Of a stretch of DNA of 31,849 bases, positions 7,632 to 30,047 are shown piece by piece. Source of the DNA: Candidatus Eiseniibacteriota bacterium. Its GTDB lineage: Bacteria; Eisenbacteria; RBG-16-71-46. Positions within the stretch are counted from its first letter, which is position 1, and each line of letters begins with the position of its first letter. Position numbers and translations under genes: made by a program. The stretch is taken from NCBI GenBank assembly GCA_031370785.1, contig JANMQY010000098.1:1-31849 (forward strand), written 5' to 3'. Below the pieces are notes generated by a model. That model saw nothing but the letters and a program-made list of their open reading frames with translations, made no database searches and had not been told where the DNA came from.

Positions 7632-9194
7632 TCAGCGGCCGTGGGCCGTGACAGAGACCTTGGCGACCGCGCTCCTTCCTGATTGAAGCAGGCGTACGAA
7701 ATAAACGCCGGGCGAGCGGAATTCGTCTCTGCGGAACTGCGCAATGCGCCGGCCGGGGCCGGGAGCGCCCAAGTTCCGGCGCAGGACCCGGCGCCCCGCA
7801 GGGTCCAGCAGCTCGAGCGTGGCGGGCTCCCAGCCCTCCAGAGAATAGGACAGGGTCACCTCGCCGGTGGCCGGATTCGGTCCGACGCGATCGAAGCCGA
7901 ACGAGCTGGTCGCCGGACCAGGGACGGACAGCACGGCGGGATCGAAGACGGTAAATGTGTCGATGACGCTTCCCATCGTGCACGTGATGTCGTTCATGTT
8001 GCCCGGGACAAATCCCGCGGGGCCGCACAGGACCTGGCCCTCGATGGCGGTGGGCGTGAAGCGCAGCTTGACGGCGGCGTGGTGCAGGGCGCGATACGCC
8101 GACCAGGTCGGCGGCGGACAACCCCCCTTCCACAGACACGTGGTGTCTCCAGTGCTTTCCATATTGGCTCCACCGACACCGGCCGTGATGTGGGTCACGT
8201 GGGACTGTGGATACGACCGCTCGTAGTTGTGGCTGTGGCCGCAGAGGTCCAGCACGTACTTGCTGTGTGTCGCACCCAGGCCGTTGAGATACGCCCTCAG
8301 GGTCAGATCTCCGGATGAATAGTTGCCCGACGAGTAGGTCGGGCGATGGCCAAACGTCACGATGAACGTGATTGCCGTATCGCTCTGGGCCTGGTTCATG
8401 ATGAGACCGACCTTCGTATTCCAGTCGGCCCACGGCCCGCTGGGGCCGTAGGTATACGGCTCCGGGATGGCGATGAAACGCGTGTTGCCATAGTCGAGCC
8501 AGTACCAGTCCTCGCCGTAGGGCCTCGGGGTGCCTGCAGGGTCGGACGAGTCCGGCGCTGTCGGACTCGTCTGGGCGTGGGGAAGGTCGAAGCGACCCTT
8601 GTAATTTCTCAGATCGTCCGTGGTCTTATCCCACTCGTGGTTACCCCAGGCCGGCATGTATGCAGCGTCCTGCGACCAAACCATGACATCGTTGAAATGA
8701 TTGTCGACGTGGATCTGACCAAAACTGTTTGCATAGGTGATGTCCCCCACGACCAGCACGAACTGGGGTCTTCCGGCAGCGATCATGGATTGGACCACGG
8801 GCATCCGCGCGAAGAGCCCGCCGTCGCCGACGTCGCCTTCGACGTACACCGTGAAGCCCGACGTCCCCCGTGGCGGCGGGGTGTGGAAAGTGTGGTCGGG
8901 ACCGGCACCGATCGAATAGTGGTAAAGCGAGTTCTCCTGAAGCCCAGTGAGCCTCGCCTCCCAGAACGGGCCTGGCGATGAGAACGGAAGCGGGCCCGGG
9001 GTCACGGCGGTCGCGCTCTGCCCGTAACTCGCGGTGAGCCCGTAGGCGATCGTGCTTTCCGGGCCTCGCCAGTCGAACGTCACCGACGCCTGGCCGGTGA
9101 TCGTCCAATGAATTTCATCCGCTGGCAGAGCCTCGCGGGCCAGCCCCAGCGCGCAGAACACGAGCATCCACAAGACCTTGTTCGGTGCCATCAC
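7632..9194 (-). CDS. Secreted purple-acid-phosphatase-like metallophosphoesterase with T9SS-A/FlgD-like C-terminal domain
   Basis: Motifs GDVG, GDITY, GNHE, FGH, GHSHNYER; FN3-like N-domain; signal peptide; RBS AAGGAAGG. Start is GTG 9194 or ATG 9191. Confidence 0.9.
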   Translation of the reverse strand: MMAPNKVLWMLVFCALGLAREALPADEIHWTITGQASVTFDWRGPESTIAYGLTASYGQSATAVTPGPLPFSSPGPFWEARLTGLQENSLYHYSIGAGPDHTFHTPPPRGTSGFTVYVEGDVGDGGLFARMPVVQSMIAAGRPQFVLVVGDITYANSFGQIHVDNHFNDVMVWSQDAAYMPAWGNHEWDKTTDDLRNYKGRFDLPHAQTSPTAPDSSDPAGTPRPYGEDWYWLDYGNTRFIAIPEPYTYGPSGPWADWNTKVGLIMNQAQSDTAITFIVTFGHRPTYSSGNYSSGDLTLRAYLNGLGATHSKYVLDLCGHSHNYERSYPQSHVTHITAGVGGANMESTGDTTCLWKGGCPPPTWSAYRALHHAAVKLRFTPTAIEGQVLCGPAGFVPGNMNDITCTMGSVIDTFTVFDPAVLSVPGPATSSFGFDRVGPNPATGEVTLSYSLEGWEPATLELLDPAGRRVLRRNLGAPGPGRRIAQFRRDEFRSPGVYFVRLLQSGRSAVAKVSVTAHGR

Positions 9195-9571: not shown

Positions 9572-10636
9572 CTACTGCCGCACCCGTAGGTCACTCACCG
9601 GCGCTGGCGGAGTCGTGTCCGACACCGTGGATTGCCTGGCCTGAGCAGAGTTTGGATCGATCATCAGGGAGGATTCGTCCACGGCTTCGAACTGATTCGA
9701 AGGAACCGTAGAAAGCTCCCGAATCATATTCGTGTCCCAGCCCGGGTCGGCAGTCCCCACCAGTTCCCAGTCGAGGCCGACGTCCGCCAGGATCATCCCG
9801 TAGTGCTTGATCGCCAGGAGCACGACCTGCGTGTTCGGGCTGAATCCCGAGATGTCGTAGCTCGCCTTGAGCCGGAAGCGCGCACCCATCGGCGGCGCAT
9901 TGGGGTTGGGCGTTTGTGTGTCATGGCGCGCAGGCCATAGGTGCGCGCCGGTAGTCCCGTTGATGTGTGCCTCGGTCGCCTCGAACCGCAGAGCGTGCCG
10001 GATCGCGCCCGCTTGCACTTCGTCCCAACGCGCGAGCCCGCAGAACATTGCTAGCCCCGCTTCGTCAGCCGAAGAGCGGCCGTCTGCCCTGAGTGTGTTC
10101 GAGCGGAGGTTCCAGATCACCGCCGCGTGCGCCTGAGGAGTTCCGTTGTTCCAGTCGGCCAGATACATTTCGTAGAGCGTGCAGGTCATTGTGTCGATCA
10201 TGAACGCATGCTTGTCGGATGTGGCGATCTCGAGTGGCGTACCGGCGGTGAACGGATATGGGCCGGGCACGTCGCTATCCAACTGGCTCTGCCCGACGAT
10301 CGTGATGGGCACCTTGGGCGTCGAGGTGTCGGTCAACGCGTACTGCATCCCGAACGTATTGGGGTAGAAGCCGATCCACAAGTGGTTGGCGTTCGTCGGC
10401 GGCCCGCTGACCGTCGCCACCCACGTCGCGCTCATCGGGTGGACCGGCACATTTGAGATGTCCGTGTTCCAGATGTTGTCCGACGGAAAGATCGGACAGC
10501 GCGGCGGCGGCGCGGTCCAGTCGGCGGCTGCGGTGATGCTAGAGGCGATCGGCCTGGGATCGCCCGCTGCGAACGCAGGGCTGATCGGGCCCAACGCCAG
10601 AAGCATGACCAGGCTGCCGAATTTGCGCGGTGCCAT
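9572..10636 (-). CDS. Secreted hypothetical protein ending in an orphan FN3 A-strand-like motif
   Basis: ATG 10636 with GAGG RBS, signal peptide ending AFA-A, globular body (FPSDNIWNTDIS, SSADEAGL, IRHALRF, PPMGARFRL, KHYGMILAD), C-terminus DTTPPAPVSDLRVRQ. Confidence 0.85.
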   Translation of the reverse strand: MAPRKFGSLVMLLALGPISPAFAAGDPRPIASSITAAADWTAPPPRCPIFPSDNIWNTDISNVPVHPMSATWVATVSGPPTNANHLWIGFYPNTFGMQYALTDTSTPKVPITIVGQSQLDSDVPGPYPFTAGTPLEIATSDKHAFMIDTMTCTLYEMYLADWNNGTPQAHAAVIWNLRSNTLRADGRSSADEAGLAMFCGLARWDEVQAGAIRHALRFEATEAHINGTTGAHLWPARHDTQTPNPNAPPMGARFRLKASYDISGFSPNTQVVLLAIKHYGMILADVGLDWELVGTADPGWDTNMIRELSTVPSNQFEAVDESSLMIDPNSAQARQSTVSDTTPPAPVSDLRVRQ

Positions 10637-10980: not shown

Positions 10981-13900
10981 TCATCGAAGTACGACAAACC
11001 GCCCGGTCCTTACGCCCTCCAGCGCATCGATGCGGTAGAAGTAGATCCCCGGGCCCATCGACTCACCGCCGGCATTCGCGGTGATCGTCAGCTGGTGCAC
11101 GCCGGCCGGAGCATCCATCTCGTCTATTAACTGGCGAACGCGTCGCCCCGCCAGATCGACGACATCGACTCGCAGAACCCCTGGTCGCGAGGTTGCGAAG
11201 CGGAGCGTCGCTTCCGAGCGGAACGGGTTCTGAGAAATTCGAGGCTCGAGCGGCCGAAGGGCCAGGATCTCGCTACTCGCTGACGGTGCCGGACCGCTGA
11301 TCGCCGGTGCGGCCGCCCCGGTCACGTTGCGGATCGAGAGGTTGTCCGTGAGGAAGACCTCTCCAGCAATCACCGGGTAGTCCTTGACGTTGAAATCCAG
11401 CGTCGAGTTGGAGGCCAGGGTAACGTAGTCCACCGTGACCATCTGCCAGGTCGGCGACAGCCGCACACCGGTGGAGAGGACCGACCCCAGGAGCGCGCTG
11501 GTGGCGATCGAGTACTCCTTGACCGAAATCTTGGCCGTGCCGGTGCTGCTCGCGGACCTGATCCAAGCGGTGAAGCGGTATCGGGACCCCGCGGCAGGCG
11601 TGGGGCCGACCCAGTCGGAATGGTCGTTGATACCGAAGCTGGAGGTGCTGGTCCCGGTCGCGCTCATCTGCGCCGCGTAGGAGCCGTCGAACCCGCCCGG
11701 GACGCGCGCCAGTACGCACGAGGCAAAGGCGTTCCAGCGAACGAGGTCGGCCTCGAACGATGGATTGCCGACCAAGTTGGCCTGGAGCGGAACCGCGGCC
11801 ACGATGAGCGACACCGAGCTCGAACGCGTCCCGCCATCGTTGTCAGTCACGGTGACTGTCGCGGTCCAATTGCCCGCGGCGTAGGTGTGTGAGGCGGTCG
11901 GCAATGTTTGCGTATTTGGGAGTGTCCCGTCCCCAAAGTCGAACCGATAGGAGACAATGGTGCCGTCGGCATCGCTCGAAGCCGAGGCGTTCGCGGCGAC
12001 AGCGAGCGGCGCATTGCCGGTACTCGGCGTCATCACCAGCGAAGCCGTGGGAAGCTGATTGGAGGCTGTCACGGTGATCCCCGTGTTCGCCGATCCGGAG
12101 AGCGCGTTCGAGGCCGTGAACGTCGCGGTGTAGGAGCCCACCTGGTTGCTGGCAGGCGTCCAGTTCAGCGTCCCGCTGTTGTTCCCCGCGCCCGGAGTGA
12201 AGGTGGCGCCCGCCGGCAGCCCGGCGGCGGTGAGCGACGTGATCGCATTGGAGTCCGGGTCCGCGGCCGTCACGTTCACGACGATCGGGAGTCCCGCTTT
12301 ACCGGCCGCCGTGGCGGGGGCCGAAACAGCGGGCGCGCGGTCCACGTTGGTCACTGTGATCGCCGTCGTCGCCGTGCCCGAAATGACGTTCGAGGCCCTG
12401 AAGGTCACCGTGTAGTTGCCTGCCTGCGTGTAACCCGGCGTCCAGTTGAGCGTCCCGGTGGTGTCCCCCGGACCCGTCGAGAACGTCGCGCCGGGCGGCA
12501 GACCGCTGGCCGTCAGCGAGGTGATCGCATCCCCCTCCGGATCCGTGGCAGTCACGTTCACGGTGAGCGGGCTGTTCTCGGCCACCGTGGCCGTCGCCGG
12601 CGCCGTCACGATCGGCGCACCGTCCGGCTTGGTGACCGTAATCGTCGTGGTGGCGGACGTGCTAAGGGCGTTCGCGGCGGTGAAGGTCACCTGGTATGAG
12701 GAGTCGGCAGCGCTCGCGGCCGGGGTCCAGGTGAGCGTTCCGCTCCTATTGTCGGGGCTTGCCGTGAAGGTCGCTCCCGCCGGAAGCCCGGAGAGATCTG
12801 CCGTAAGGGATGCGATCGACTCTCCGTCCGGGTCGATAGCTGTCACGTTCACCGTCAGCGAGCTCAGGGCCCGCCCACTCACTGTGGGCGGCGCCGTGAC
12901 CACCGGCGGGTGCGGGGCGTCGAAGACTGAGATCACGGTCGGCGCGGAGCCAGAGAGCACATTCGCGGCCGTGAAGGTCACGCTATAAGAGCCCGCCTGG
13001 CCTTCCGCGGGGGCCCAGCTGAGCGTCCCGGTCGTATCCCCCGGATCCGCTGTGAAGGTGGCTCCAGCTGGGAGCACGGCGGCCGTGAACGAGGCGATCC
13101 CTTCCTGGTCCGGATCGGAAGCCTTGACGCTCACGGTCAGGATCTTTCCGATCACTATGCCGGCAGTCGCGGGCGCCGTCACGACGGGCGCGCGGTCCAC
13201 ATTAGTGATGGTGAAGGCGGTGGCCGCGGACGCCGACAGGGCATTCGAGGCCATGAAGGACACCGTGTACGAGCCCGCTTGGTCGTAGCCTGGCGTCCAT
13301 GCAAGCGTCCCGCTGCTGTTCCCCGGACCTGCGGAGAACGTGGCCCCCGACGGCAAACCAGAGGCCGTCAGCGATGTGATCGCTTCTCCGTCCGGATCGG
13401 AGGCCTGCACATTGACCGTCAGCGGGCTGTTCTCGGGCCCGGTGGCGGCCGGAGAGGCAGTGATCACTGGCGCGCGGTCCACGTTGGTCACCGTAATCGC
13501 CGTACTTGACGTGGCCGAGCGCGCGTTCGTGGCCCTGAACGTGACCGTGTACGGGCCGGCTTGGTCGAAACTCGGCGTCCAGCTCATCCGGCCCGTGGTG
13601 TTGCCGGAACCGGGCACGAAGGTCGCGCCCGCCGGTAGCCCCGAAACCGTAAGCGAGTCGATTGCGGGGCTGTCAGGGTCCGAGACCGTCACGTCCACGG
13701 TCAGCAGGTTGTTCTCAGCCACCGTGGCTGTCGCCGGCGCCGTCACGACGGGCGACTGATCGCCGATGATGAGCTGATCCATGACGCTACCCTGACTGCA
13801 GGTCACGTCATTGATGTTGGCCGTGCTGTCGCCCGGCGGCCCACAGAACGCCACGATCTCGATCGAGGAAGACGTGAAGTGTAGCTGGACCGCCACATGA

Positions 13901-16900
13901 TGCATGGCGCGGAACGCTGACCACGCGGGCGGCGGGCACCCCCCCGACCACAGGCAGGAACTACCCGTAGCCTCTTCCAAGTTCGCTCCGCCCGGCCCGA
14001 CCGTGACGTGAACCACGCCGTTCTGGGGATACGAGCGCTCATAGTTATGGCTGTGCCCGTTGAGGTTCAGCTTGTATTTGTCGTGGGTGGCGCCCAGGCT
14101 GTCCATATAGGCGCGCAATTCCGCATTGCCCGGGTGAAATCCGCTGGAGTAGGCCGGACGATGCCCGAAGGTGACGATGAACTTGATGGCCGGATCGAGT
14201 TGCGCCTGGTCCATCAGCACGGCCGCTCGGTCGCGCCAGTCGAGCCAGGCTCCCGTAGACTTCTCAGGGTAGGTGATGAATCTCACGTTGCCGTAGTCGA
14301 ACCAGTACCAGTCCTCGCCGACGGCGATGGGCGGCACCCCGGGTGAGGTCTGCGGATTGGGAAAGTCGAACCGACCCTTGTAGTTCCTGAGGTCATCTCC
14401 CGGGGACTCCCATTCGTGGTTGCCCCACACCGGCATATAGGCAGCGTCCTGCGACCAGGCCATCACGTCGTTGTAGTGCCGATCCACGGCGGTCTGATCC
14501 GAGGTGTTGGCGTAGGTCATGTCACCTGCGACCAGCGTGAATGCCGGCCTTCCCGCCGCGATCATGGACTGGATAGCCCCCATGCGGGGAGCCAGCGTCG
14601 CGTCGCTGACGTCGGCCTCGGTGAAGACGACGAAATCCGAGGATCCGCGTGTGGGCGGAGTGTGGAAGGTGTGGTCCGGCCCTCCGCCGATCGAGTAGTG
14701 GTAAGTCGTGTTCTCAAGCAGCCCGGTGAGCTTCGCCTCCCAGAACGGCCCCGGCGACGAATACGGAATCGGGCTCGGCGTGACTCCCGTTGCGCTCTGG
14801 CCATAGCTGCTGGTCAGACCGTAACGAATCGTGGCGTCGAAGCCGCGCCAATCGAAGGTCACCGAAGTCTGACCGGTGAGCGTCCAGTGGATCTCGTCCG
14901 GCAGCTGCCCGGTCGGGGCTGGCTGGACCGTGATGACCCGCGTGCCGGGCGTCGGGTCTGGCTTCCCAAAGCCATCCGTAACGGTCAGCGAAACGGTGTA
15001 GGTCCCGGGGGTGTTGAAGATCACCGGACCCGGGTCCTCTGCCGTCTGGTTCGCCGCTCCCCCGCCCAGGTTCCACAGGTAGGTAAGCGGACCGCTGGCG
15101 TCGGGATCGATTCCCGTGCCTTCGAAATTGACGGCCTGGCCCGCGGCGATCGTGGTGTTGGCGAGCGGCAGGTCGATCACGCCATTCGGCGCAATGTTGC
15201 CGCCGGACACCGTGATCGGGGCCGAGGCTGTCCCCGTCAGGCCGGTGTTGTCGGTGACGACCACGGTGGCGGTCCAGTTGCCCGAATCGTAGGTATGTGA
15301 GGCCGTCGGCTGCGACTGCGGGCCGACGACAGTCCCGTCACCGAAATCAAACCGGTACGAGGCGATCAGGCCTTCCAGATCGGATGAGCCCGACGCATCC
15401 GCAACTACGGGCAGGGGCGCCTGGCCGGTCGAGGGCGTCAGTGTCAGGACGGCCGTGGGAGGACGATTGTATGCGAATTCGAACGCGCCCAGGTCGGCGT
15501 ATGGCACGGGCCCCCGGCCGGTGTTGGGCGTGGCCGGATCGTCGCCTCGGGCGTGGCCTTCGGCATCGGTCGCCGGCCAGTTGGGCACACCCGAGTCGGC
15601 GGCGTCGATGGCCGGGGAGCCCGCCAGGAGATGGAAGTCCCCCGCCGCCGGGTTCCCGAATCGGGGGTCGGCCTGGATCGAGTTCACATCGTGCCCGGTC
15701 GCCGCGCTGAAGGCCGCGATCGTCGAATAGAGCGTGCTGATGAACTTGATGGGCTTTTGGGTTGTGGAGTTCCAGAAGATGTTGCGATCCGACACGAACC
15801 CCACCGAGGACGAATCGTTCACCCACAGGTTGACCTCGTTAGTCGTCAGCCCGTTGTCGATCGCGATGCAATCGAAGAGGGACCCGTTCGGGGCCTGACC
15901 TTCGATCGAGAACCCGTCCTTGAAGTTGTGGTAGGCGACGTCCCCGACATGCGAGACGCCGGCGGCGTACAGCTGGTCAAAGCCGTGATCACCGTTGTTC
16001 CAGCTCATGTTCTGGATCGAGACGCAGTTGTCCGATCCCTGTTCGATCTGGATCCCCGAGTCCTGGTTGTCGTGAATGCGGTTGCGCTGGATCAAGTTCC
16101 CCGGCGATCCGTAGACGCGAATCCCCACCGCCCTTCGCGAGGGCGGGTAGATGTTGCGCATGGACTCGTTGTCCTGGACCGTGCAGCCCGTCGAGCCGGT
16201 CGAGCTGCTCTTGGTGAGAAAGATGCCGTTGTCCGAGTTGTCGGACGCCACGTTCTTCTCGATCAGGACTCCGGTGCAGCCGGTCACATAAATTCCGTAC
16301 CTATAGTTCCAGGTGCAGGTGTTGTTTCGGATAATGTTGTAGTTACTCGCCGTGTTGAGGTAGATCGCGCGATCCTCGGCGCGCGTCACCGTGAACCCGT
16401 CGATCGTCACGTAGGAGCGTCCACCGAGGTAGATCCCGCGGGTCCGATGCCCCACCATGATCGTGCGCGTGCCGGGATTCGGGCCCCCGATGTTGACGTA
16501 CAGGCCCTGCCCGTTGACCCGGACGAAGGAGTTGACCGGGAGCGATCCCGGCGACGCGGTGGAGGACTTGAGCCGCACTCCATCCACGAACACTTGCATC
16601 GGGCCCCAGCTCACGCTCGAGGCCCGGTACACGTTTCCGGAATAGAGACTCCAGAGCGAGGTGGACGAGAAATCATCCGAGCCGTCTACGATCACCGACC
16701 CGCCCAGCGCCTTGATGGTGTAGGGATTTCCCGCCACACCCGAGGTCGCTACCGTGACCGACTCGCGATAGATGCCCGGCTTCACGTAGACGGTGACGCC
16801 GGGACCTTTGTTCGCGCCGACGGCCGCCGAGATGGTGCAGTAGGGCTGCGCCTCGGTTCCGGGGCCGACGTCAGAGCAGGCCGTGCTCGAGTTATCGACG

Positions 16901-17016
16901 TAGACGATCACCGCCGCGGCATACGCCGCGGGCGCCGCGAGGAGCGGGATGGCAACGGCGACGCCTGTGGACAGGGCCCTCCACAGCGAGCAGTGGAGCG
17001 CCATCATGCGTGACAT
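10981..17016 (-). CDS. Giant secreted multidomain protein: parallel beta-helix, two PKD, PAP-like metallophosphoesterase, six Ig/cadherin-like repeats, PKD, CBM4/9-like domain, T9SS-A/FlgD-like C-terminal domain
   Basis: Signal peptide ending AYA-A; Asn-ladder repeats and GDFHLLAGSPAIDA; PKD motifs YRFDFGDG; GDMTY, GNHE and GHSHNYER; six P.VTAP...DPD...LP.GATF...WTP repeats; NLVGNPSFE; DLAGRRVR...PGIYFYRI. Start uncertain between 17004 and 17061. Confidence 0.88.
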   Translation of the reverse strand: MSRMMALHCSLWRALSTGVAVAIPLLAAPAAYAAAVIVYVDNSSTACSDVGPGTEAQPYCTISAAVGANKGPGVTVYVKPGIYRESVTVATSGVAGNPYTIKALGGSVIVDGSDDFSSTSLWSLYSGNVYRASSVSWGPMQVFVDGVRLKSSTASPGSLPVNSFVRVNGQGLYVNIGGPNPGTRTIMVGHRTRGIYLGGRSYVTIDGFTVTRAEDRAIYLNTASNYNIIRNNTCTWNYRYGIYVTGCTGVLIEKNVASDNSDNGIFLTKSSSTGSTGCTVQDNESMRNIYPPSRRAVGIRVYGSPGNLIQRNRIHDNQDSGIQIEQGSDNCVSIQNMSWNNGDHGFDQLYAAGVSHVGDVAYHNFKDGFSIEGQAPNGSLFDCIAIDNGLTTNEVNLWVNDSSSVGFVSDRNIFWNSTTQKPIKFISTLYSTIAAFSAATGHDVNSIQADPRFGNPAAGDFHLLAGSPAIDAADSGVPNWPATDAEGHARGDDPATPNTGRGPVPYADLGAFEFAYNRPPTAVLTLTPSTGQAPLPVVADASGSSDLEGLIASYRFDFGDGTVVGPQSQPTASHTYDSGNWTATVVVTDNTGLTGTASAPITVSGGNIAPNGVIDLPLANTTIAAGQAVNFEGTGIDPDASGPLTYLWNLGGGAANQTAEDPGPVIFNTPGTYTVSLTVTDGFGKPDPTPGTRVITVQPAPTGQLPDEIHWTLTGQTSVTFDWRGFDATIRYGLTSSYGQSATGVTPSPIPYSSPGPFWEAKLTGLLENTTYHYSIGGGPDHTFHTPPTRGSSDFVVFTEADVSDATLAPRMGAIQSMIAAGRPAFTLVAGDMTYANTSDQTAVDRHYNDVMAWSQDAAYMPVWGNHEWESPGDDLRNYKGRFDFPNPQTSPGVPPIAVGEDWYWFDYGNVRFITYPEKSTGAWLDWRDRAAVLMDQAQLDPAIKFIVTFGHRPAYSSGFHPGNAELRAYMDSLGATHDKYKLNLNGHSHNYERSYPQNGVVHVTVGPGGANLEEATGSSCLWSGGCPPPAWSAFRAMHHVAVQLHFTSSSIEIVAFCGPPGDSTANINDVTCSQGSVMDQLIIGDQSPVVTAPATATVAENNLLTVDVTVSDPDSPAIDSLTVSGLPAGATFVPGSGNTTGRMSWTPSFDQAGPYTVTFRATNARSATSSTAITVTNVDRAPVITASPAATGPENSPLTVNVQASDPDGEAITSLTASGLPSGATFSAGPGNSSGTLAWTPGYDQAGSYTVSFMASNALSASAATAFTITNVDRAPVVTAPATAGIVIGKILTVSVKASDPDQEGIASFTAAVLPAGATFTADPGDTTGTLSWAPAEGQAGSYSVTFTAANVLSGSAPTVISVFDAPHPPVVTAPPTVSGRALSSLTVNVTAIDPDGESIASLTADLSGLPAGATFTASPDNRSGTLTWTPAASAADSSYQVTFTAANALSTSATTTITVTKPDGAPIVTAPATATVAENSPLTVNVTATDPEGDAITSLTASGLPPGATFSTGPGDTTGTLNWTPGYTQAGNYTVTFRASNVISGTATTAITVTNVDRAPAVSAPATAAGKAGLPIVVNVTAADPDSNAITSLTAAGLPAGATFTPGAGNNSGTLNWTPASNQVGSYTATFTASNALSGSANTGITVTASNQLPTASLVMTPSTGNAPLAVAANASASSDADGTIVSYRFDFGDGTLPNTQTLPTASHTYAAGNWTATVTVTDNDGGTRSSSVSLIVAAVPLQANLVGNPSFEADLVRWNAFASCVLARVPGGFDGSYAAQMSATGTSTSSFGINDHSDWVGPTPAAGSRYRFTAWIRSASSTGTAKISVKEYSIATSALLGSVLSTGVRLSPTWQMVTVDYVTLASNSTLDFNVKDYPVIAGEVFLTDNLSIRNVTGAAAPAISGPAPSASSEILALRPLEPRISQNPFRSEATLRFATSRPGVLRVDVVDLAGRRVRQLIDEMDAPAGVHQLTITANAGGESMGPGIYFYRIDALEGVRTGRFVVLR
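12062..13762 (-). repeat. Six tandem ~94 aa Ig/cadherin-like repeats
   Basis: Repeats begin DQSPVV, DRAPVI, DRAPVV, PHPPVV, DGAPIV and DRAPAV; boundaries approximate. Confidence 0.85.
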
Positions 17017-17221
17017 GCGACGAAGCCGACTCACCTTGGTCCTACGGATGTGCACGCACAATGCAGGCCGCGAGGCCTGTCCCTGTTGGCAACGGGTCGC
17101 CGGTTACGGGGTATCCTGGGCGCTGGCGTGAACGGCGATGCGAAGGGGGGTTGCGGCCCGATCAAGCAGATATATCAACTGCGCCTAGGTGCTACGTTCA
17201 TTTCAAACCAACTTCGTTACT

Positions 17222-17251
17222 ATCCTAAACCAATTCAACGCCGGATTTCAA
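17222..17251 (-). promoter_or_regulatory. Candidate sigma70-type promoter for the giant gene
   Basis: Minus strand TTGAAA-N18-TAGGAT in an AT-rich intergenic patch, overlapping the stop codon of the RtcB-like gene. Confidence 0.4.
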
Positions 17252-18654
17252 CCGTTTTTTAAGTTGCCTAGCGGCCGCAGCCTGATCACGGGTCGCATCA
17301 TGCTGTTCCTCATCAGGCATTGCATTACCCGATCGAGCCTTTCCGAGGACCGCAGTTCTATATCGTTACGCGACAATAACCTGGCACCGCGCCCCCGACT
17401 CATCCGGAAGCGTGTGACCTGGCCCTCCGCCCGTGCCAGATGTCCTCGCTTCCTGGAACTCTCGATCAGGTGCCCGGCCCCGTGGTCGTAGGAGCGTAAT
17501 CGGGCATCCACGCCGGGTTCACCGATGCCGAGATAGGATGGGACGTCATACATTCCCGCGACGATCGTGGGCTTGCCGGATTCGAGGCGACACGCATTAT
17601 GCCGGGCCACCCAGGAAGTGCCCGCAGGAGAAACACATTCCTCGATGCCGTTGTGGCTCACATCGCAGAACAGCTCCCATGCGAGGCTGGGAGAAACCGC
17701 GCCGTGCAGGCCATCCACGATCGCACGTACGGTTGCGAGTCGGTACGCATAGCCAAAGTTGATGGCCATCGCGAACGCCTGGCGAAGCAACCGACCCTCC
17801 TCCGACTCGGCGGGCACGGCCGTCCAGCCATTGCGGCGGAAGTGGAGCGCCCATTTCCTCGAGGCGGCGCCCTTTCCCATCCTCTGGAGATAGTGGAACA
17901 GGAGCTTGGATGCGAAGAACAGGGGAACTCGTGCGCGCTGGAGCTTGCTCCTGCGCGAGTAGTGGTTCAGCAGCGTCGCGCTGAAGGGCCCGGGGCCAAG
18001 GTGGTACATGATCACCACCTGCCCGCGCTCGAAACCCCAGTGCGCTGCCACCTCTCGGTCCACGAGCTCTTCGACGACCTGCACCTCGAGAAAATGGTTG
18101 CCGCCGAAGTTGAGTCCCATTTCCGACCGAGTAAACGTCGTGAGGAGCAACTGAAGCGGGACCACGTCCGTCAGGGGCGAGCTCTCGAGGCCGTTCGACG
18201 GCACACGTCCGCCATCCTCCATCCCCTGCAGCACCTTCTCGTCGAGCTCGTATCGCGAGAGCAGCGCCTGCGCTCCCTCGGAGAGAGTCCGCCGCAGCTC
18301 GCTGGCCGAAATGCTGTAACGGTTGGTATCGAAGTGGTTGGTCGCCGAGTTCGCATTGACGCTGGTGAAGAATGCGGCCAGCCGTTCGGGCGACATCTCG
18401 TCGGCCCGCAGGCCGGTCCTCACGATCCCCATGCCGTCGTTCACGTCCATCGAGGTGAACTCCGGAACGATCATGCCCCGGGTGGTGATGGCGATGCTCG
18501 ATGGCACCTCCATGTCCGCTTTCCAATGCACGTCGGGGAGCGCCAGGACGGACTCGACGTAGGGCAACCCCGCAAGTTGCTCCAACGTCCGACGGATCGG
18601 CGCCGGGAGTTCCTCACCGATGGAAAGCAACGTCAGTTTTTCCGAAGAATCCAT
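17248..18654 (-). CDS. Divergent RtcB-family (RNA ligase fold) protein
   Basis: RtcB motifs in canonical order: LPDVH, DVNDG (canonical DIxCG), GGNHFLEVQ, YHLGPG (canonical HSGSRG), DVSHN, HGAG, LRPLGNLK. RBS GGAAGGAG. Confidence 0.85.
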   Translation of the reverse strand: MDSSEKLTLLSIGEELPAPIRRTLEQLAGLPYVESVLALPDVHWKADMEVPSSIAITTRGMIVPEFTSMDVNDGMGIVRTGLRADEMSPERLAAFFTSVNANSATNHFDTNRYSISASELRRTLSEGAQALLSRYELDEKVLQGMEDGGRVPSNGLESSPLTDVVPLQLLLTTFTRSEMGLNFGGNHFLEVQVVEELVDREVAAHWGFERGQVVIMYHLGPGPFSATLLNHYSRRSKLQRARVPLFFASKLLFHYLQRMGKGAASRKWALHFRRNGWTAVPAESEEGRLLRQAFAMAINFGYAYRLATVRAIVDGLHGAVSPSLAWELFCDVSHNGIEECVSPAGTSWVARHNACRLESGKPTIVAGMYDVPSYLGIGEPGVDARLRSYDHGAGHLIESSRKRGHLARAEGQVTRFRMSRGRGARLLSRNDIELRSSERLDRVMQCLMRNSMMRPVIRLRPLGNLKNG

Positions 18655-21831: not shown

Positions 21832-23100
21832 TCAGCCGGTGCTCGCCGGACCCGGCAGAGGTACGGGAGGCCTCACGTCGCCGGCGACGGCAGGATGTGT
21901 ATAGGAGTAGAAATAGTGGAGCCTATCATCCGCGTGCTGGAAGTCGACCTGGTTCAGAACCGTGCCCAGCAGCTGAACGCCGCGGCTCTCGAGACGCTCC
22001 TTGGCGCGACGGATTACCTGAACATCGAACCCGCCGGCCTTGACGACCAAAAGCACGCCGTCGACCATCTGGGCGATCGCCTCCGCCGGGCTCGTGACCG
22101 CCACCGGGGGTGAGTCGACGATCACCACGTCGAACATCCGCGACAGGTTCTCAAGCAGGCGCTTCAGGGGTACCGAGCCCGAACCGGTCATCAAGTCGCT
22201 CTGGGCGACCCCACTGGTCAGGATCCTGAGGCTCCCGACCTCAGTTTCCTTCAGGTAGCTCTCGATCTGCCCGGTCAGGTACGGCCGCTTCGTGAAGTCC
22301 CTCAACTGCTGCCCGAGATGGGCGTCGATGCCCCAGGCATCCGGGTTCAGCCGCTGCCGCCGCATCGGGGCCGCGAGTTCGACCGCCCCCGTGTCAGAGA
22401 ACTCGCACCGGGGGCGACGCATCGCCAAAATACACTGCAATTGCTCGGCGATCTGAGCGCGCCGAACAGCCAGTAGCGCTTTGGGCTCGACGTAGCCCAG
22501 GCGCAGCACGATGTCGCCCAACGGCTCGCGGTTTTCGTCGCAGAGTCGCATGGCGCTGTCGCGCTGCGAAGCGGTGAGCAGGCCGCGACTCGCCAGGGCG
22601 TCCCCGAGCAGCCGGTTTTCCGAACCCTTCTGTTCGACGATGCTGACGATCGCGCCCTTCAGCAACGAGACGACGTAGGCCTGGTCGTTCTCGGCGACCG
22701 CCAGCCGGCCGCTCCGGCCCTGCACCTGGAGCAACTCGATCCAGTCGCCGAATTCGAGCTGGTTCGCATCCGCGCGATTGGGATCCGACTGATAGACGCC
22801 ATTCAGCAACTCGCCGAGTCCGGGCGCATTGTCGACGTTGAACAGACGATGTTGGCTGGGCCTGAACTGGTCGGTGTCCACCAGGACGACCTTGATCCCC
22901 CGGAGGCGTGCCATGACTCTGGAGAGCCCGGCCGCAATCGTGGACTTACCCTCACCAGGTCCGCTGCTCGTGATCAGCAGCGTGCGCTTCCCCTGGGCGA
23001 CGTGGCGCTCGACCTCCGCGCCGAGGGAGACGAAGCAGTCGGCTTCGAAGGCCCGGGTGACCTGAGGCGTATTCCTGCTCATGCGTGGGAATCGCTCCAT
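21832..23100 (-). CDS. CpsD/CapB-type tyrosine kinase (stand-alone Wzc kinase domain) with an internal DUF4388/MshEN-like insertion
   Basis: Walker A GPGEGKS, A' VLVDTD, Walker B VIVDSPP, GTVLNQ and C-terminal HYFYSY, with an extra segment of roughly 175 aa between A' and B. Confidence 0.85.
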   Translation of the reverse strand: MERFPRMSRNTPQVTRAFEADCFVSLGAEVERHVAQGKRTLLITSSGPGEGKSTIAAGLSRVMARLRGIKVVLVDTDQFRPSQHRLFNVDNAPGLGELLNGVYQSDPNRADANQLEFGDWIELLQVQGRSGRLAVAENDQAYVVSLLKGAIVSIVEQKGSENRLLGDALASRGLLTASQRDSAMRLCDENREPLGDIVLRLGYVEPKALLAVRRAQIAEQLQCILAMRRPRCEFSDTGAVELAAPMRRQRLNPDAWGIDAHLGQQLRDFTKRPYLTGQIESYLKETEVGSLRILTSGVAQSDLMTGSGSVPLKRLLENLSRMFDVVIVDSPPVAVTSPAEAIAQMVDGVLLVVKAGGFDVQVIRRAKERLESRGVQLLGTVLNQVDFQHADDRLHYFYSYTHPAVAGDVRPPVPLPGPASTG

Positions 23101-23102
23101 TC

Positions 23103-24527
23103 CTAGTGCCGCTTCGGAATCATCCCGAGCACGGGTAGCTGCAATTGCTCGGCCGCGTCAATCGGCGTTCGGATGGTCTGGCGCAGGTGCTCCTGCAGCA
23201 GGGCCAGCCCCGTCCCGCTTAGCAACCCCACCATGACACCCAGCACCATGTTAAGAACCCAGCGCGGGCGCACCGGCTTCGATCCCACGGTGGCCGATCC
23301 GACGACCTGGACGAGTGGGTACCGAACGGCTCCGCTCGCGTGGTCTTCCTGGACCCTGGTCGACAGCATGTTGTAGTGCTCCCGCGAGCTCTGAAGCTCG
23401 CTCTGGACGGTCGTCTGCTGTGCGAGGAGATCACTGACCCGATGCAGCTTGCCTTCTCGGAGCGCGATGGTCGCTTGGAGGTTCTTTTCGCGCTCGAGGA
23501 GGACCGCATACTCCTGCTCGAGCGCCGAGACGGTCCTGGCGAGTTCTGCGTGGATGTTTTCCCGGATGTTCCGCAGCTCGGAGACCAGCATCATCAGCTT
23601 GGGATGCCCGTCCCGGTAGACCTCCCGCGCGCGCGCCAGATCAGTCTGTCGGGCCAGGAGATCACGCCACAGACCGTCCAGGGTCTCGCTCTGGACCGGA
23701 AGGTCGCTTGGTTCCCTCAGGCTGTCGCGCAGCACCTCCCGCACGCGCGCGAGTCGAGCTCCCGCGGCCAGGCGCTCGGTTTGAATCTTCACATAGGAAT
23801 CGTTGAGGCCACTGATCCCGTCCGTGAGTTGCTTGAACTGCTCCGCCAGGATGACAGGCGCCTCGCTGCTCGAGCCGTTCAAGCTGCTTTCTAGTGTCTT
23901 GATCCGCCTCCTGGTCTCCTCCATTTGCTGCGACATCTCGCCCGCCCGGCTGGAATCGGCGGTGGCGAGCCAGCGCGCCTGGCTGGCGATAAATGCATTG
24001 GCGAGCACGTCGGCTATCGACGTCGCGGTCGCGGGATTCCAGTGCTCGACTTGCACGTTGAAGAGACGGGTGTCACGGACTGGCCTGACCGTCGTGATCT
24101 CGATCAGCCAGTCGATCTCGCGATTCAGTTCGTCGATGAACTCTCTGTCTCCTCCGGCGGGCGCCCCACGACTTCGGCTCAGAAAGGGCAGTCTCGGCCT
24201 GGTGGGCATCTGCAGCAGTCCCCGCTCCTTGAGCTTCAGCGCCACCTCTCGGAGCAGAGTGCGGTTCGTGACCAGCTGCGCGGCGGTAAACACCGCGATA
24301 TTGTCCGACTGCCACTGGTCGCTGGCGATCGCCTCGCCCGTGAGCGACGAGCGATTCGGCTCCTTGCGGACCTCGATGCAGACCGTTGCCACGTAGATCG
24401 GTCGCGTCATCAGATTCACTGCCACCGCCAGCGCGAGGCACGCGCCCGCGGTGGTGAGGATCAGCCGACGCCGGCGGCTCAGGATCGAGCCGAGTTGCTT
24501 GAGATCGATTTCCTGGGGATTGGGCAC
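23103..24527 (-). CDS. Polysaccharide copolymerase (GumC/Wzc N-terminal part)
   Basis: EIDL...RRR plus TM segment, PIYVAT, coiled-coil periplasmic region with YRDGHPKL, PVRPR plus TM segment, LPVLGMIP. GTG start at 24527 inferred. Confidence 0.88.
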   Translation of the reverse strand: MPNPQEIDLKQLGSILSRRRRLILTTAGACLALAVAVNLMTRPIYVATVCIEVRKEPNRSSLTGEAIASDQWQSDNIAVFTAAQLVTNRTLLREVALKLKERGLLQMPTRPRLPFLSRSRGAPAGGDREFIDELNREIDWLIEITTVRPVRDTRLFNVQVEHWNPATATSIADVLANAFIASQARWLATADSSRAGEMSQQMEETRRRIKTLESSLNGSSSEAPVILAEQFKQLTDGISGLNDSYVKIQTERLAAGARLARVREVLRDSLREPSDLPVQSETLDGLWRDLLARQTDLARAREVYRDGHPKLMMLVSELRNIRENIHAELARTVSALEQEYAVLLEREKNLQATIALREGKLHRVSDLLAQQTTVQSELQSSREHYNMLSTRVQEDHASGAVRYPLVQVVGSATVGSKPVRPRWVLNMVLGVMVGLLSGTGLALLQEHLRQTIRTPIDAAEQLQLPVLGMIPKRH

Positions 24528-24562
24528 TGGATCACAACCCTCTCGGCGTTCGTCCCGCCCGG

Positions 24563-25165
24563 TCAGAAGCCACGCCGTGGCACCTCGACGCGGTCCCCTC
24601 TGACTAGGCTCGGGTCCTCGATTTTTCCCTTGCTGACTTTGCCCAGGTCGAAGGTGATCGTCTTGGACTTGCCATCCAGGACACGCGTGACCTTGACCCG
24701 TCGAAGCGAAGCGTACTCCGTGAAGCCTCCCGCCAGGAGGCATGCTCTGAGGGCCGTCAATCCTTCCTGATAGCCATAGGCCCCTGGCTTATTCACGGCG
24801 CCCATCACGAACACCTGACCGGCGTAGTCCTTGACGCTCACGAGTACCTGGGGATTCACGAAGAAATCCTTCGCGAGCATGGCAGTCATGTTCTTCGCGA
24901 CCTCGTACGTCGTCAGACACTCGACCTTCACCTCCCCCAGCAGCGGGATCGTGATCGTGCCCGCCGAGGAGATCGTTCCCGTAAATTCCTCCTGCTTGTC
25001 GCCACCCGCGTAAATCGCGATCAGAAGCACATCGCCCGGTCCGACCTGATAGTTGGCCGATTCCGACGACGCCCGGCTCGCCCCGAGACCCAGTCCGGCG
25101 GTCGCGGCGAGTAGCAACATGACCGTCCAGTTCAGCACCGTGCGAGCCCTCGACCACACCCTCAA
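24563..25165 (-). CDS. Short OPX (Wza-like) polysaccharide export protein with Poly_export and one SLBB domain
   Basis: YQVGPGDVL, GTITIPLLGEV, VFVMGAVNKPG, LAGGFT and GDRVEVP. TTG start at 25165 follows GGGGGA; alternative ATG at 25120. Confidence 0.88.
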   Translation of the reverse strand: MRVWSRARTVLNWTVMLLLAATAGLGLGASRASSESANYQVGPGDVLLIAIYAGGDKQEEFTGTISSAGTITIPLLGEVKVECLTTYEVAKNMTAMLAKDFFVNPQVLVSVKDYAGQVFVMGAVNKPGAYGYQEGLTALRACLLAGGFTEYASLRRVKVTRVLDGKSKTITFDLGKVSKGKIEDPSLVRGDRVEVPRRGF

Positions 25166-25188: not shown

Positions 25189-26406
25189 TCACTGAAGCGC
25201 CGCGGTCAATGACAACTCCGCCCGACTCCTCCGGGAGTCCTGGGGAGCCGCGGTCCGGGTCTCGGTCTGCCTCGAATAGAGGTAGGTGACCCTGGCCGTC
25301 AACCATGGTTGCAACTGCCTCGAAAGCGAGGCGGAGGCGTTGCGGTCCTCGACACGGAGCGTGTCTCCCACACGGGACCTCGTGCGCGCAAAGCTGCCCT
25401 TCAGTATCGCAACGGTCCGCCCGCCGAGCGTGTCTCGCACCTCGAACCCGACGAGATCGCGGAGGGTCGGCTCATCGAAGAGTCCGCCCTGGGCGTCGAG
25501 CGTTCGTTCCCATCGAGCCGCGAGCCACGTGTTGGCCACCGACCTCCACAGCAGCGCGCTACCGGTGGTCGACATGTCGCGCGCGATCAGCGCTCGCGCA
25601 TCGAACGGCAGCCCCACGGCCCGTCCCACTCCCGAGATTCCGGCGGACACCGCGAGGTCGCGACGCTGAGTGCCGTGTAAGGCGTCCCGGGAATCAGCCA
25701 CACCGATCTCGAACTCGCTCGACAGCACCGGAGAATGGTCCCTGCGGTAGCCGGCCGTCGCCACCGCGACCCGGAGGGCTTGGCTATGGTTCAGCCGCCA
25801 TTCCTTCTGTTTCCAGCGCACGAGCAGGCGGGAGTGTTCAATAGTCATCGGGAAGACGGCCGCGGACCACGCCTGATAGAAACCGTCGGGCTTGTCCGCA
25901 ACCTTATAGTTCGTAGCCCGGATCTGATAGGTCGCCTCTTCGCGTGAAGATAGCGCCCGGACCGAACCGGAGCAAAGCTCCGTCTGACCGGAGGGCAGCG
26001 GTGTCCCGGGAGCCAGGTAAAACAGGTCCTGCGAACGGAGGTAAGCTCCGTCGAGGGTCAACTCCGAACGCTTGGTCGGCGCGCTCGAGGCCCGAATGGA
26101 GGCAAGATCCGTGGCAGGCCTGGTAGCAGAAGAGGAGAAGTAAGACTCGTAGGAGCGAAGCGCGCTGATTTCCCAGCTGGTGACCGGCCCAGGGCGGCCG
26201 ATCGTGAGCTGAGGGGCGACCGAGGCAACCCACTGACCCCCGTTCACAGCCGAGGTCGATCGCTTTTCGACGCGCGATCCAATGGTCATCCCTGGGGAAA
26301 AACCTCCGGCCAGCGCCCGCGACCCACCGTCCAGATTCAACCACGTCAAGAAGAGGCCAGTCGTCGTCCACGCTATCCGCGAGCGCATGGAAGCCTGCCT
26401 CATCAT
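25189..26406 (-). CDS. Probable outer-membrane beta-barrel of the EPS export system
   Basis: Signal peptide ending ALA-G, alternating amphipathic strands (ASASLSRQLQPWLTARVTYLYS, RAELSLTA), located directly upstream of the OPX gene. Start uncertain (26388-26406). Confidence 0.65.
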   Translation of the reverse strand: MMRQASMRSRIAWTTTGLFLTWLNLDGGSRALAGGFSPGMTIGSRVEKRSTSAVNGGQWVASVAPQLTIGRPGPVTSWEISALRSYESYFSSSATRPATDLASIRASSAPTKRSELTLDGAYLRSQDLFYLAPGTPLPSGQTELCSGSVRALSSREEATYQIRATNYKVADKPDGFYQAWSAAVFPMTIEHSRLLVRWKQKEWRLNHSQALRVAVATAGYRRDHSPVLSSEFEIGVADSRDALHGTQRRDLAVSAGISGVGRAVGLPFDARALIARDMSTTGSALLWRSVANTWLAARWERTLDAQGGLFDEPTLRDLVGFEVRDTLGGRTVAILKGSFARTRSRVGDTLRVEDRNASASLSRQLQPWLTARVTYLYSRQTETRTAAPQDSRRSRAELSLTAALQ

Positions 26407-27066
26407 GCCTTGCCCGTCGCCCATCGCTCCAATCGCCCTCCCGACCGGGGAAGGCGCAACCAGCTCGAGCTGGCTGGGGATGCCCGATTGCCCTCCGAGC
26501 TGCCCTTCCCCCAACACCTGTCCGAGAGCCCTGACAGGAAGGACGTCGAGGCTTTCTTTGCTCGACGCGTCCGCGAGTGGGAACTCAAGCCCATGAGTGG
26601 ATGGAAAATGACCCAAGAGGACCGAATTCACTGTCCGCAGATACCCGCCCTTCACGATGTAAGAGGAAGCGCAGAACACGTCACGACCCGCACGGGTTCT
26701 AGGGCGAAACCGTACCGGCTTTCTTCGCGCGCCCCTTAGAGTAACGGCACACGGCGCAGGCGGGAAAAACGGTTCTTCATCCCCCAGATGGCGACCCAGT
26801 CTAAGTCACGCGAACCGGACGCGTCAATCGCCGCTCCCAAAGTACCCAGCAAGGTTCGTGCACGGAACGACTGCGACAAGCCGATCGGGCCCGCAACTCG
26901 TCCCTTCGATCCGGAAGCGCCCGACCTCCCGCGACCGGATGCCCAGTGGGCGTTGAAGGAAAATCGGAGGGCGACTGAAAGCGATGCATGCGGTGCAGCG
27001 ACCCCGAAGTCGCACGACTGACCCCGAGTATGTCAATATGGAAGGAACGCGGTTCGCCGGGAGAGG

Positions 27067-29219: not shown

Positions 29220-30047
29220 CTAGCGTCGCACTGTGAGATCCCGGATTGCCGCTGGCGGGATGACGTCGAGGGTCGGTGCGCTCACGACAATCGAGAGCAC
29301 CGAGACGTTGCCGGAGGCGTCGGTCGTCTTCATGGCGGCGTAGTAGGTCACGCTTCCCTGGAGGCCCGTGATCGTGAAAGTCTGGGTAGTTCCCGCGATC
29401 GCCGGCATGGGCTCGCCCGACACCGCCGTCGCCAGGGCCCAGTTCGCATCCGCGATCGGTATCGTCGAGTAGCGAATGTCGTAGCTCGCCGCGGTGCCGG
29501 TCGCGCCATCGTTGCCCGGCGCGGTCCAGCGCAGGGTGATGGACGTGCCGGTGGTCCCGGTGACGGCGAGGTCCGCGATTCTGCCCGGCGGCGCTGTGTC
29601 ACCGGACGTGGTCATGCTCCCGAAGTTGGAGTAGCCGGACCAGTTCGGCACTTCGTCGGCGATGCGCAGGATGAAGTAGTACGTCGTCAGGGGCGCGAGC
29701 CCGCGCACGCGAACCGAGTCCGTCGAGCCAACCGGCCGGGGCGCTGGAAGCCCGCTCACTCTGGTCGCGGCGTTCCACCAGGTGAGTGTGTCGGTTCCGA
29801 CGACGGACGTCGTCCGATACCGAAGATCGTACGTGCTCGCTGTGCCCATTGTACCGTCGTCACCAGAAGTGGTCCACGAGACCGTCAGGCTCGAGTCGGC
29901 AGCCGTCTGGGCGTCTGCACCGCGGGCCAGGAACAGCCCGATCACAACCGCGCCGAAGACGGCTCGGCTCAGGCCCGTTGGAACGAGGCGCTCGAAAGCG
30001 CGGGATCGGATGCGGAGCGTGCGCATGATGCAGTTCGTTGGAGTCAT
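29220..30047 (-). CDS. Secreted two-FN3-domain protein with permuted A strand
   Basis: ATG 30047 with AGGGGA RBS, signal peptide ending ADA-Q, two W.x.xG.DG..GTA..YD.RY...GL....TYY repeats, C-terminus DVIPPAAIRDLTVRR. Confidence 0.87.
   Translation of the reverse strand: MTPTNCIMRTLRIRSRAFERLVPTGLSRAVFGAVVIGLFLARGADAQTAADSSLTVSWTTSGDDGTMGTASTYDLRYRTTSVVGTDTLTWWNAATRVSGLPAPRPVGSTDSVRVRGLAPLTTYYFILRIADEVPNWSGYSNFGSMTTSGDTAPPGRIADLAVTGTTGTSITLRWTAPGNDGATGTAASYDIRYSTIPIADANWALATAVSGEPMPAIAGTTQTFTITGLQGSVTYYAAMKTTDASGNVSVLSIVVSAPTLDVIPPAAIRDLTVRR

What the first reader, a model, noticed from the sequence alone, without database searches (positions are those of the whole stretch)
9572..9619. Same orphan A-strand tag at the C-terminus of an unrelated secreted protein: a docking or sorting signal
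Seen: the 9572..10636 protein has no FN3 domain, yet it ends in DTTPPAPVSDLRVRQ*. This aligns without gaps to DVIPPAAIRDLTVRR* of the FN3 protein, with the same length up to the stop (D-x-x-P-P-A-x-[VI]-x-D-L-x-V-R-x). Inference: the tag lets cargo proteins plug into the A-strand-less FN3 domain as a tip, cap or displayed enzyme. That would be a modular strand-based display system distinct from PEP-CTERM and T9SS C-terminal domains.
Basis: partly seen in the sequence, partly recalled or inferred. Interest (0 to 1): 0.85.

Follow-up and report, generated by a model that had tools for sequence, protein, structure and literature searches.

The report
Split-FN3 plug tag on secreted proteins
This likely secreted protein, like many unrelated ones in these uncultured bacteria, ends in a short conserved peptide matching the one strand missing from a fibronectin-type domain on partner proteins, so it likely plugs into them and would be held at the cell envelope, although binding has only been modelled, weakly.

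Summary
Confirmed: 9572-9619 (-) encodes DTTPPAPVSDLRVRQ*, strand A of the FN3 subfamily in the 29220-30047 protein. In this Ca. Eisenbacteria genome 4 of 6 strict matches lie within 4 residues of a stop (background 1.6%); the other two start complete FN3 domains. All 5 N-terminal FN3 domains lack this strand; all 5 internal ones have it. Three strand-less domains head proteins ending in a T9SS-like CTD, one in a conserved extender-adaptor-PorV operon. In a neighbouring phosphoesterase family 59 of 120 homologues end in a CTD, 45 in the tag, none has both, with at least 9 switches. A 12-genome family whose one named member is Ca. Kerfeldbacteria has no PorV hit, yet has tags (17 of 25 matches terminal) and strand-less FN3 proteins, so the tag is probably not a T9SS signal. 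Co-folding gave only weak support (0.60, best control 0.00). Best reading: donor-strand docking of cargo onto FN3 sockets. EPS linkage is not general; one genome has a tag but no detected socket. This scan noted the same system before on other DNA and on this window; ten literature searches listed no description.

The parts
9572..9619 (-). Orphan FN3 strand-A tag, D340-Q354 plus stop (DTTPPAPVSDLRVRQ*)
   Evidence: D340 and P344 invariant, position 347 V or I in 19 of 19, D/N349 in 19 of 19 and L350 in 18 of 19 tagged homologues, while residues 336-339 vary. pLDDT 31-45 in the single-chain model.
9572..10636 (-). Cargo gene: signal-peptide-like N-terminus (about residues 1-23, by eye), about 290-aa core of no named family, linker, tag
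   Evidence: 5,555 relatives at E<=0.001; core pLDDT mostly above 90; no Foldseek or PDB sequence hit; only weak MltA/expansin-type fold matches, Z<=3.8, rmsd 6.1 over 179 residues.
29220..30047 (-). Extender gene: signal peptide, strand-less FN3, complete FN3, terminal tag
   Evidence: Among 120 homologues 118 lack strand A in the first domain and 112 carry a tag within 45 residues of the end.
29604..29909 (-). FN3 domain 1 without strand A (predicted socket); begins at Q47, three positions after the tag's conserved Leu in register
   Evidence: Model has no strand before E6-13, whereas domain 2 has E115-119; register counts; co-fold. Cleavage site before Q47 judged by eye.
29568..29600 (-). 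Internal strand A of FN3 domain 2 (DTAPPGRIADL), the template that identifies the tag
29220..29267 (-). Terminal tag of the extender (DVIPPAAIRDLTVRR*)
   Evidence: pLDDT about 90 but no strand assigned in the monomer model.
7632..9194 (-). Next gene downstream of the cargo: metallophosphoesterase ending in a T9SS type A CTD; its homologues carry either the CTD or the tag
   Evidence: (TIGR04183, 22.9 bits against cut-off 23).

Best explanation
The 15-residue tail is a detached strand A of an FN3 domain that likely inserts into the groove of a strand-less FN3 domain on a partner protein, and so would tether the cargo at the cell envelope. Shown from sequence: the tag, its terminal position, the complementary split point, the three protein classes (cargo: tag only; extender: socket...tag; adaptor: socket...CTD), the operon with a PorV-family gene, and the exchange of tag for CTD or lipobox within cargo families. 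Predicted, weakly: binding. Inferred: all classes cross the inner membrane by Sec; cargo docks directly on a CTD-bearing adaptor or through one or more extenders; the adaptor is handled by the T9SS-like machinery (SprA, PorV, PorU present) and gives the cargo its export route or anchor; in the Ca. Kerfeldbacteria-like genomes a socket with an N-terminal hydrophobic segment takes the adaptor's place. Whether docking happens before or after outer-membrane passage, and how long the chains get, is open.
For: Terminal enrichment: own genome 4 of 6; same family 18 of 66 DNA-pattern matches within 10 residues of a stop, in 13 of 15 genomes, plus 8 at 11-26 residues and 22 followed by an FN3-like strand (six-frame background 13.3%, p 0.002; kin are not independent). 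Complementary split: 118 of 120 first domains lack the strand, 142 of 150 later domains have it; own genome 5 of 5 and 5 of 5; internal Leu-to-Trp spacing 13 in 78 of 79, sockets mostly start 11 before Trp, 65 cargo tags end 1-4 residues after Leu. Adaptor full length in 23 of 24 family genomes; extender, adaptor and PorV motif in that order in 18 of 24 loci; PorV family over cut-off next to the own adaptor; SprA, PorU and 9 PorV-family genes in the genome. Swaps: phosphoesterases 59 CTD, 45 tag, 16 neither, 0 both of 120; 9 changes on a 117-row tree. Cargo family top 57: 19 tagged (1 with lipobox), 38 untagged (28 with lipobox). Second lineage: FN3 hit in 12 of 12 genomes, strand-less in the 11 displayed, 17 of 25 matches terminal in 9 genomes, PorV 0 of 12. 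Co-fold: 0.60, best of 3 controls 0.00, verdict weak support; the mark was reached by 116 of 157 solved complexes and 2 of 215 mismatched pairs, but at 0.60 or under by only 18 of the 157 and by both mismatches; runs agree in at least 91% of contacts; partner pLDDT at least 58; own alignments used; completing an FN3 fold can pass from memory.
Against: No measurement of binding, location or expression. The co-fold pass is in the range called more often wrong than right unless likely beforehand, and gave no interface. G086 (93% complete) has a terminal tag on a contig-end fragment but no socket by single-domain or alignment search. Exclusivity of tag and CTD is partly built in, as both sit at the end. 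Tag and lipobox occur together in P0033 and probably L178 and L183; P0006 and P0039 look complete with neither. Much of the tag (DxxPPxx[VI]xD) is not assigned as strand even inside domain 2, so the pairing surface is small. How a CTD-less cargo or extender crosses the outer membrane is unexplained. Signal peptides and lipoboxes were judged by eye or regex.
Confidence: 0.72

Rival explanations
1. The tag is a linear sorting or processing signal read by some other machine (a peptidase or transporter), derived from an FN3 strand but not binding FN3 sockets.
For: It replaces the T9SS CTD within one family at least 9 times, as a targeting signal would; G086 has a tag without a detected socket; it ends close to the stop.
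Against: The same tag occurs in 9 of 12 genomes of a family with no PorV hit, where the shared partner found is again a strand-less FN3 protein; the tag stops where the socket starts; it lacks the CTD fold described in PMC10994853 and PMC11969387 (passages). No candidate reader was searched for.
Confidence: 0.13
2. The extender polymerises head to tail into a long pilus-like FN3 fibre, tagged proteins are only tips, and the CTD adaptors are terminators at the base. This shares the docking step with the best explanation but differs in scale.
For: The extender has socket and donor at opposite ends, conserved in 112-118 of 120 homologues; its free tag is modelled at pLDDT about 90; the layout matches tip, stalk and anchor of type V pili in reverse polarity (PMC13655056 introduction).
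Against: Cargo genes are many and scattered; many extenders carry 17-25 more residues after the tag that could hinder chains; the 12-genome family shows one or two FN3 hits per genome and no two-domain extender; no chaperone or protease step was seen. A homo-oligomer was not modelled.
Confidence: 0.1
3. The tag is a functionless remnant of a lost C-terminal FN3 domain, and N-terminal FN3 domains simply tolerate loss of strand A.
For: The motif is the normal start of FN3 domains in these genomes (22 of 66 matches); several tags directly follow a complete FN3 (C37 type).
Against: Same break point on unrelated folds (GHL15, beta-helix, phosphoesterase, phytase) in two distant lineages; invariant D and P beside a variable linker; no FN3 remnant downstream in 35 of 44 tagged frames, the 9 hits being the next adaptor gene.
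Confidence: 0.04

Closest known systems
PilC/PilY1 C-terminal strand complementing PilK-family minor pilins (PMC12918778; abstract and discussion read)
   Same: A short C-terminal peptide on a large functional protein completes a partner's beta-sheet and holds it in place.
   Different: Acceptor there is a type IV minor pilin and the donor one adhesin family; here the acceptor is an FN3 domain and the tag is on many unrelated proteins.
Type V pili, FimA/Mfa1 (PMC13655056 abstract and introduction; PMC4789730 passages)
   Same: C-terminal donor strands; anchor, stalk and accessory classes; no usher reported.
   Different: Lipoprotein precursors, transthyretin-like double sandwich, self-complemented form and protease cleavage; tip pilins lack donor strands. 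Here FN3 fold, no lipobox on cargo or extender, the groove is open by gene design, and the distal cargo is the donor.
T9SS CTD with PorV/PorU (PMC10994853 and PMC11969387, passages)
   Same: C-terminal signal on Sec-exported cargo; same cargo families; adaptors carry such a CTD and lie beside a PorV-family gene.
   Different: CTDs are folded domains of 43 residues or more that bind PorV; the tag is 12-15 residues and also occurs where no PorV was found.
Chaperone-usher pili and Pam pili of CPR bacteria (PMC13278184 passages; chaperone-usher features as summarised in PMC4789730)
   Same: Incomplete Ig-like fold completed by a strand from another subunit.
   Different: Those use chaperones and N-terminal or linker donor strands; no such chaperone was seen beside these genes (not searched genome-wide).
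Cellulosome cohesin-dockerin and engineered SpyTag/SpyCatcher (recalled, no call)
   Same: Portable module that clips diverse enzymes onto a scaffold; tag completes a split domain.
   Different: Dockerins are folded Ca-binding domains; SpyTag is artificial and covalent. Neither family was hit.

Membership tests
FN3 strand A (of the WTAPGDDG subfamily) | Same motif precedes strand B at fixed spacing in complete domains | tested here: met
   142 of 150 later domains; spacing 13 in 78 of 79; Pfam fn3 and Foldseek FN3 hits for the extender.
Donor-strand complementation system | An acceptor domain lacking exactly that strand exists in the same genomes | tested here: met
   exception G086.
Donor-strand complementation system | The strand binds in the acceptor groove in trans | tested here: inconclusive
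   Weak support, 0.60 against 0.00, no interface given.
T9SS type A CTD | Folded C-terminal beta-sandwich matching TIGR04183, PF18962 or PF13860 | tested here: not met
   No hit for the cargo or extender; own CTD profile finds none in 57 cargo-family proteins. Met by the adaptors.
PEP-CTERM / exosortase substrate | PEP motif, transmembrane helix and basic cluster at the C-terminus (definition recalled) | tested here: not met
   Sequence ends in a polar proline-rich tail with no hydrophobic helix; no NCBIfam hit.
Type V pilus | Lipoprotein precursor with lipidated Cys | tested here: not met
   No lipobox in the cargo (regex) or by eye in extenders.
Type V pilus | Transthyretin-like two-domain pilin fold | tested here: not met
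   Top Foldseek matches of the extender are tandem FN3 structures.
Type V pilus | Protease-triggered strand exchange | not testable with these tools
   No proteomics; the socket lacks an own anchor strand to be displaced.
Chaperone-usher pilus | Linked chaperone and usher genes | tested here: inconclusive
   None recognised beside extender or adaptor genes; no genome-wide search was run.
PilC/PilY1-PilK tip complex | Acceptor is a PilK-family minor pilin | tested here: not met
   Predicted acceptor is an FN3 domain; binding to pilins was not tested.
MltA/expansin-type double-psi barrel (cargo core) | Fold match | tested here: inconclusive
   Best Z 3.8, rmsd 6.1, 179 aligned; none at Z>=5.

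The most novel reading that the evidence does not exclude
A general, undescribed protein display system: a portable 12-15 residue FN3 strand-A tag clips unrelated enzymes onto strand-less FN3 sockets, lets CTD-less cargo borrow the T9SS route of an adaptor in Eisenbacteria, and works without T9SS in a CPR family; a natural tag-and-catcher shared across distant phyla.
Probability: 0.55. Interest if true: 0.88.

Novelty: new variant of a known kind. Interest (0 to 1): 0.76.

Why it matters
If true, a 12-15 residue peptide is an alternative to the T9SS CTD and to lipid anchors for placing enzymes at the envelope. That would explain many CTD-less secreted proteins in T9SS-bearing uncultured phyla, show cargo borrowing an export or anchor signal in trans, give CPR bacteria a way to display enzymes, and offer a small natural tag-catcher pair for engineering. 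It can be tested cheaply with one peptide and one 100-residue domain.

Tried and rejected
EPS linkage as a rule: the window holds a Wzx/Wzy/Wzc/Wza cluster and the extender sits in it, but the tagged genes on C11, C37, C43 and C84 have no evident EPS neighbours (called ORFs read by eye; that output was cut for loci L119-L123 only). Frameshifted or decayed FN3 after the tag: none. A looser motif PxxPxxL without the Asp: 24 hits, 0 terminal. Function of the cargo core: Pfam, NCBIfam, PDB sequences, Foldseek and ESM Atlas named nothing; absence of a fold match does not show a new fold. My interim idea that G086 is a clean 'no tag, no socket' control was wrong. The collection-wide tag-plus-stop pattern gave only 14 loci, several in short or unlikely frames, so it gives no range estimate. 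Longer forms of the cargo (over 620 aa) were not searched. A homo-oligomer of the extender was not modelled (single job used). Reads and expression were not examined. Paper searches (listings only, except the six papers cited) showed no description of this system; the library lacks most subscription papers and no supplements were opened.

Full report
Observation. The minus-strand frame 9572-10636 gives a 354-aa protein that ends DTTPPAPVSDLRVRQ*. The FN3 protein at 29220-30047 ends DVIPPAAIRDLTVRR*. They align without gaps, with 8 of 15 identities and the same distance to the stop. The first protein has no Pfam or NCBIfam match; the second has two FN3 stretches. BLASTP between them is not significant (best E 0.19). 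Eisenbacteria.

Is it chance? In 29,400 six-frame ORFs the strict motif D..PP..[VI].DL occurs 6 times; 4 are within 4 residues of a stop and the other 2 begin complete FN3 domains. Against 2,748 crudely called genes the terminal background is 1.6% (p 9.5e-7; shuffles give 0.1 hits); a wider motif gives 5 of 10. A DNA pattern over 25 genomes gave 95 matches against 12 for the reversed control (hand sums). I fetched all 89 non-own matches. In the own family 18 of 66 lie within 10 residues of a stop (13 of 15 genomes), 8 at 11-26, 22 are followed by an FN3-like strand and 18 are other; in the two other families only 2 of 23 are within 10, one of them in a short unlikely frame. Against the harshest six-frame background (13.3%) p is 0.002; kin are not independent.

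What the tag is. In the extender the same motif starts domain 2 (DTAPPGRIADL), while domain 1 starts at QTAADSSLTVSW right after the apparent signal peptide. Among 120 homologues, 118 first domains lack the motif in register and 142 of 150 later domains have it. The internal Leu-to-Trp spacing is 13 in 78 of 79 cases, the mature Gln lies 11 before Trp in 79 of 97 counted, and 65 cargo tags end 1-4 residues after the Leu. Tag and socket therefore meet at one split point with 0-2 residues of overlap. AlphaFold2 gives the extender two FN3 domains (pLDDT 90.9, pTM 0.65), a strand at 115-119 in domain 2 with no counterpart in domain 1, and a tail at about 90 with no strand assigned (FN3 fold). The cargo tail is at 31-45. 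D340 and P344 are invariant in 19 tagged homologues while the linker varies (these 19 were chosen for having the tag).

The partners. The own genome has 10 FN3 bodies of this subfamily: 5 directly after a signal-like segment, all without strand A, and 5 internal, all preceded by a strand-A-like motif. The five sockets are two extenders (C95, C84) and three proteins ending in a FlgD_ig/T9SS-like CTD (C84:25582-26607, C124:60443-61573, C124:98094-98792). On C84 the order is extender, adaptor, PorV-family gene (108.8 bits, cut-off 90). The full-length adaptor is in 23 of 24 family genomes and in none of 16 others in that sample; the three-gene order appears in 18 of 24 loci by motif. SprA, PorU and 9 PorV-family genes pass their cut-offs. 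Outside the family, G027 (one tagged protein) and G025 have large proteins that start with a socket and end in a CTD, and G153 has extender, adaptors and three terminal tags. G086 is the exception: a terminal tag on a contig-end fragment, no socket found, 93% complete.

The cargo. Tagged proteins include GHL15/CBM proteins, beta-helix proteins, metallophosphoesterases, a phytase and proteins of no family (23 scanned, a few of them adaptors). Of the 43 tagged frames, those with intact starts mostly begin with a hydrophobic segment (by eye; no predictor was run). The gene just downstream of the cargo (7632-9194) is a phosphoesterase with a CTD. Of its best 120 homologues (960 found), 59 end in a CTD, 36 in the tag by a strict rule and 45 by a relaxed one, 16 in neither, none in both, and no CTD form has an internal tag. 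On a FastTree tree of 117 catalytic domains (3 rows left out) the label changes 9 times (shuffled mean 33), with mixed clades at local support 0.998 and 1.0; direction was not determined. In the cargo's own family the top 57 split into 19 tagged (1 with lipobox) and 38 untagged (28 with lipobox, 10 with neither, most of them fragments); none of the 63 more distant hits is tagged, and none of the 120 lists fn3 (lengths 194-620 only). The core's function is unknown; weak fold matches to MltA and expansins (Z<=3.8) and its neighbours hint at a glycan-acting protein, an inference of low confidence.

A second lineage. A collection scan returned a tag in a record titled Ca. Kerfeldbacteria (L047). 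All 12 genomes of that family hit the FN3 profile; the 11 displayed have an N-terminal hydrophobic segment followed by an FN3 without the motif, then FG-GAP repeats in the one scanned. 17 of 25 pattern matches end within 10 residues of a stop, in 9 genomes, and 2 more within 24. PorV was found in 0 of 12 (small genomes, completeness not given). Tag and strand-less FN3 thus travel together without a detected T9SS, which favours docking over a T9SS signal.

Co-folding. Domain 1 (47-148) with cargo residues 323-354 scored 0.60, best of 3 controls 0.00: weak support. The mark was reached by 116 of 157 solved complexes and 2 of 215 mismatched pairs, but at 0.60 or under by only 18 of the 157 and by both mismatches. 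Runs agree in at least 91% of contacts, partner pLDDT is at least 58, my own alignments were used, and completing an FN3 fold can pass from memory. It adds little.

Mechanism. Most likely (0.72) the tag completes a socket in trans. Cargo (tag only) would dock on an adaptor (socket...CTD), directly or through extenders (socket...tag), and so gain the adaptor's export route or anchor. Sequence anatomy and swaps are shown; binding is weakly predicted; location, order of events and chain length are inferred. Rivals: a linear signal for another reader (0.13), long fibres with tips (0.10), remnant (0.04).

Comparison. It works like the PilC/PilY1 C-terminal strand that completes PilK (PMC12918778, abstract and discussion) and like type V pilus donor strands (PMC13655056, abstract and introduction; PMC4789730, passages), but fails their membership tests. 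It is not a CTD (PMC10994853, PMC11969387, passages) and not PEP-CTERM (definition recalled). Pam pili of CPR bacteria are a different system (PMC13278184, passages). Ten searches listed no paper on it; no supplements were read. Earlier unchecked notes of this scan report the same tag-and-socket idea in several other genomes and for the FN3 gene of this window; they are not independent support. My three-class reading was noted before I saw them; I borrow their word 'socket'.

Verdict. Real, conserved, not in the literature searched, binding unproven. New variant of donor-strand complementation; interest 0.76.

Noticed in passing
L033:1426-2817 (G015): The motif sits directly after the apparent signal peptide, at the N-terminus of a 463-aa protein with no Pfam hit; possibly an N-terminal donor.
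   Followed up: no
L115:9837-10601 (own C84) and L132-L155: C84-type extenders carry a further 20-25 residues after the tag with a conserved aromatic stretch (for example AVSFIWFGW); C95-type ones often carry an acidic tail instead.
   Followed up: no
window 17248-18654 (-): An RtcB-family protein (154.9 bits) lies directly after the Wzx flippase gene at the end of the EPS cluster.
   Followed up: no
window 21832-23100 (-): The Wzc-kinase-like ATPase carries a DUF4388 insert and is split from its Wzz/GNVR partner at 23103-24743.
   Followed up: no
window 25189-26679 (-): Frame of 496 aa beside the Wza gene with no Pfam or NCBIfam hit; sequence looks like an outer-membrane barrel (by eye).
   Followed up: partly
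window 10981-17061 (-): 2026-aa protein (beta-helix, PKD, phosphoesterase, He_PIG repeats, CBM, CTD) whose phosphoesterase module resembles the 7632-9194 gene; similar genes flank cargo homologues in L178, L181, L183, L190.
   Followed up: partly
L115:11605-13392 (own C84): The PorV-family gene after the adaptor has a C-terminal LysM-like stretch (weak MltD and YneA hits).
   Followed up: no
L054 / G164: Record titled Gammaproteobacteria but 0.9 Mb, with the same socket protein beside uvrB as the Ca. Kerfeldbacteria genome G165 and a terminal tag; the label may be off.
   Followed up: partly
P0132-P0215 (three-domain forms): Three-FN3 extenders named Zixibacteria keep a short LxV/LxA remnant before strand B, and P0142 ends in a CTD-like domain.
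   Followed up: no
L303 (G027:C91) and L304 (G025:C5): Proteins in frames of 1,794 and 1,487 codons start with a strand-less FN3 and end in a CTD: large scaffolds as sockets.
   Followed up: partly
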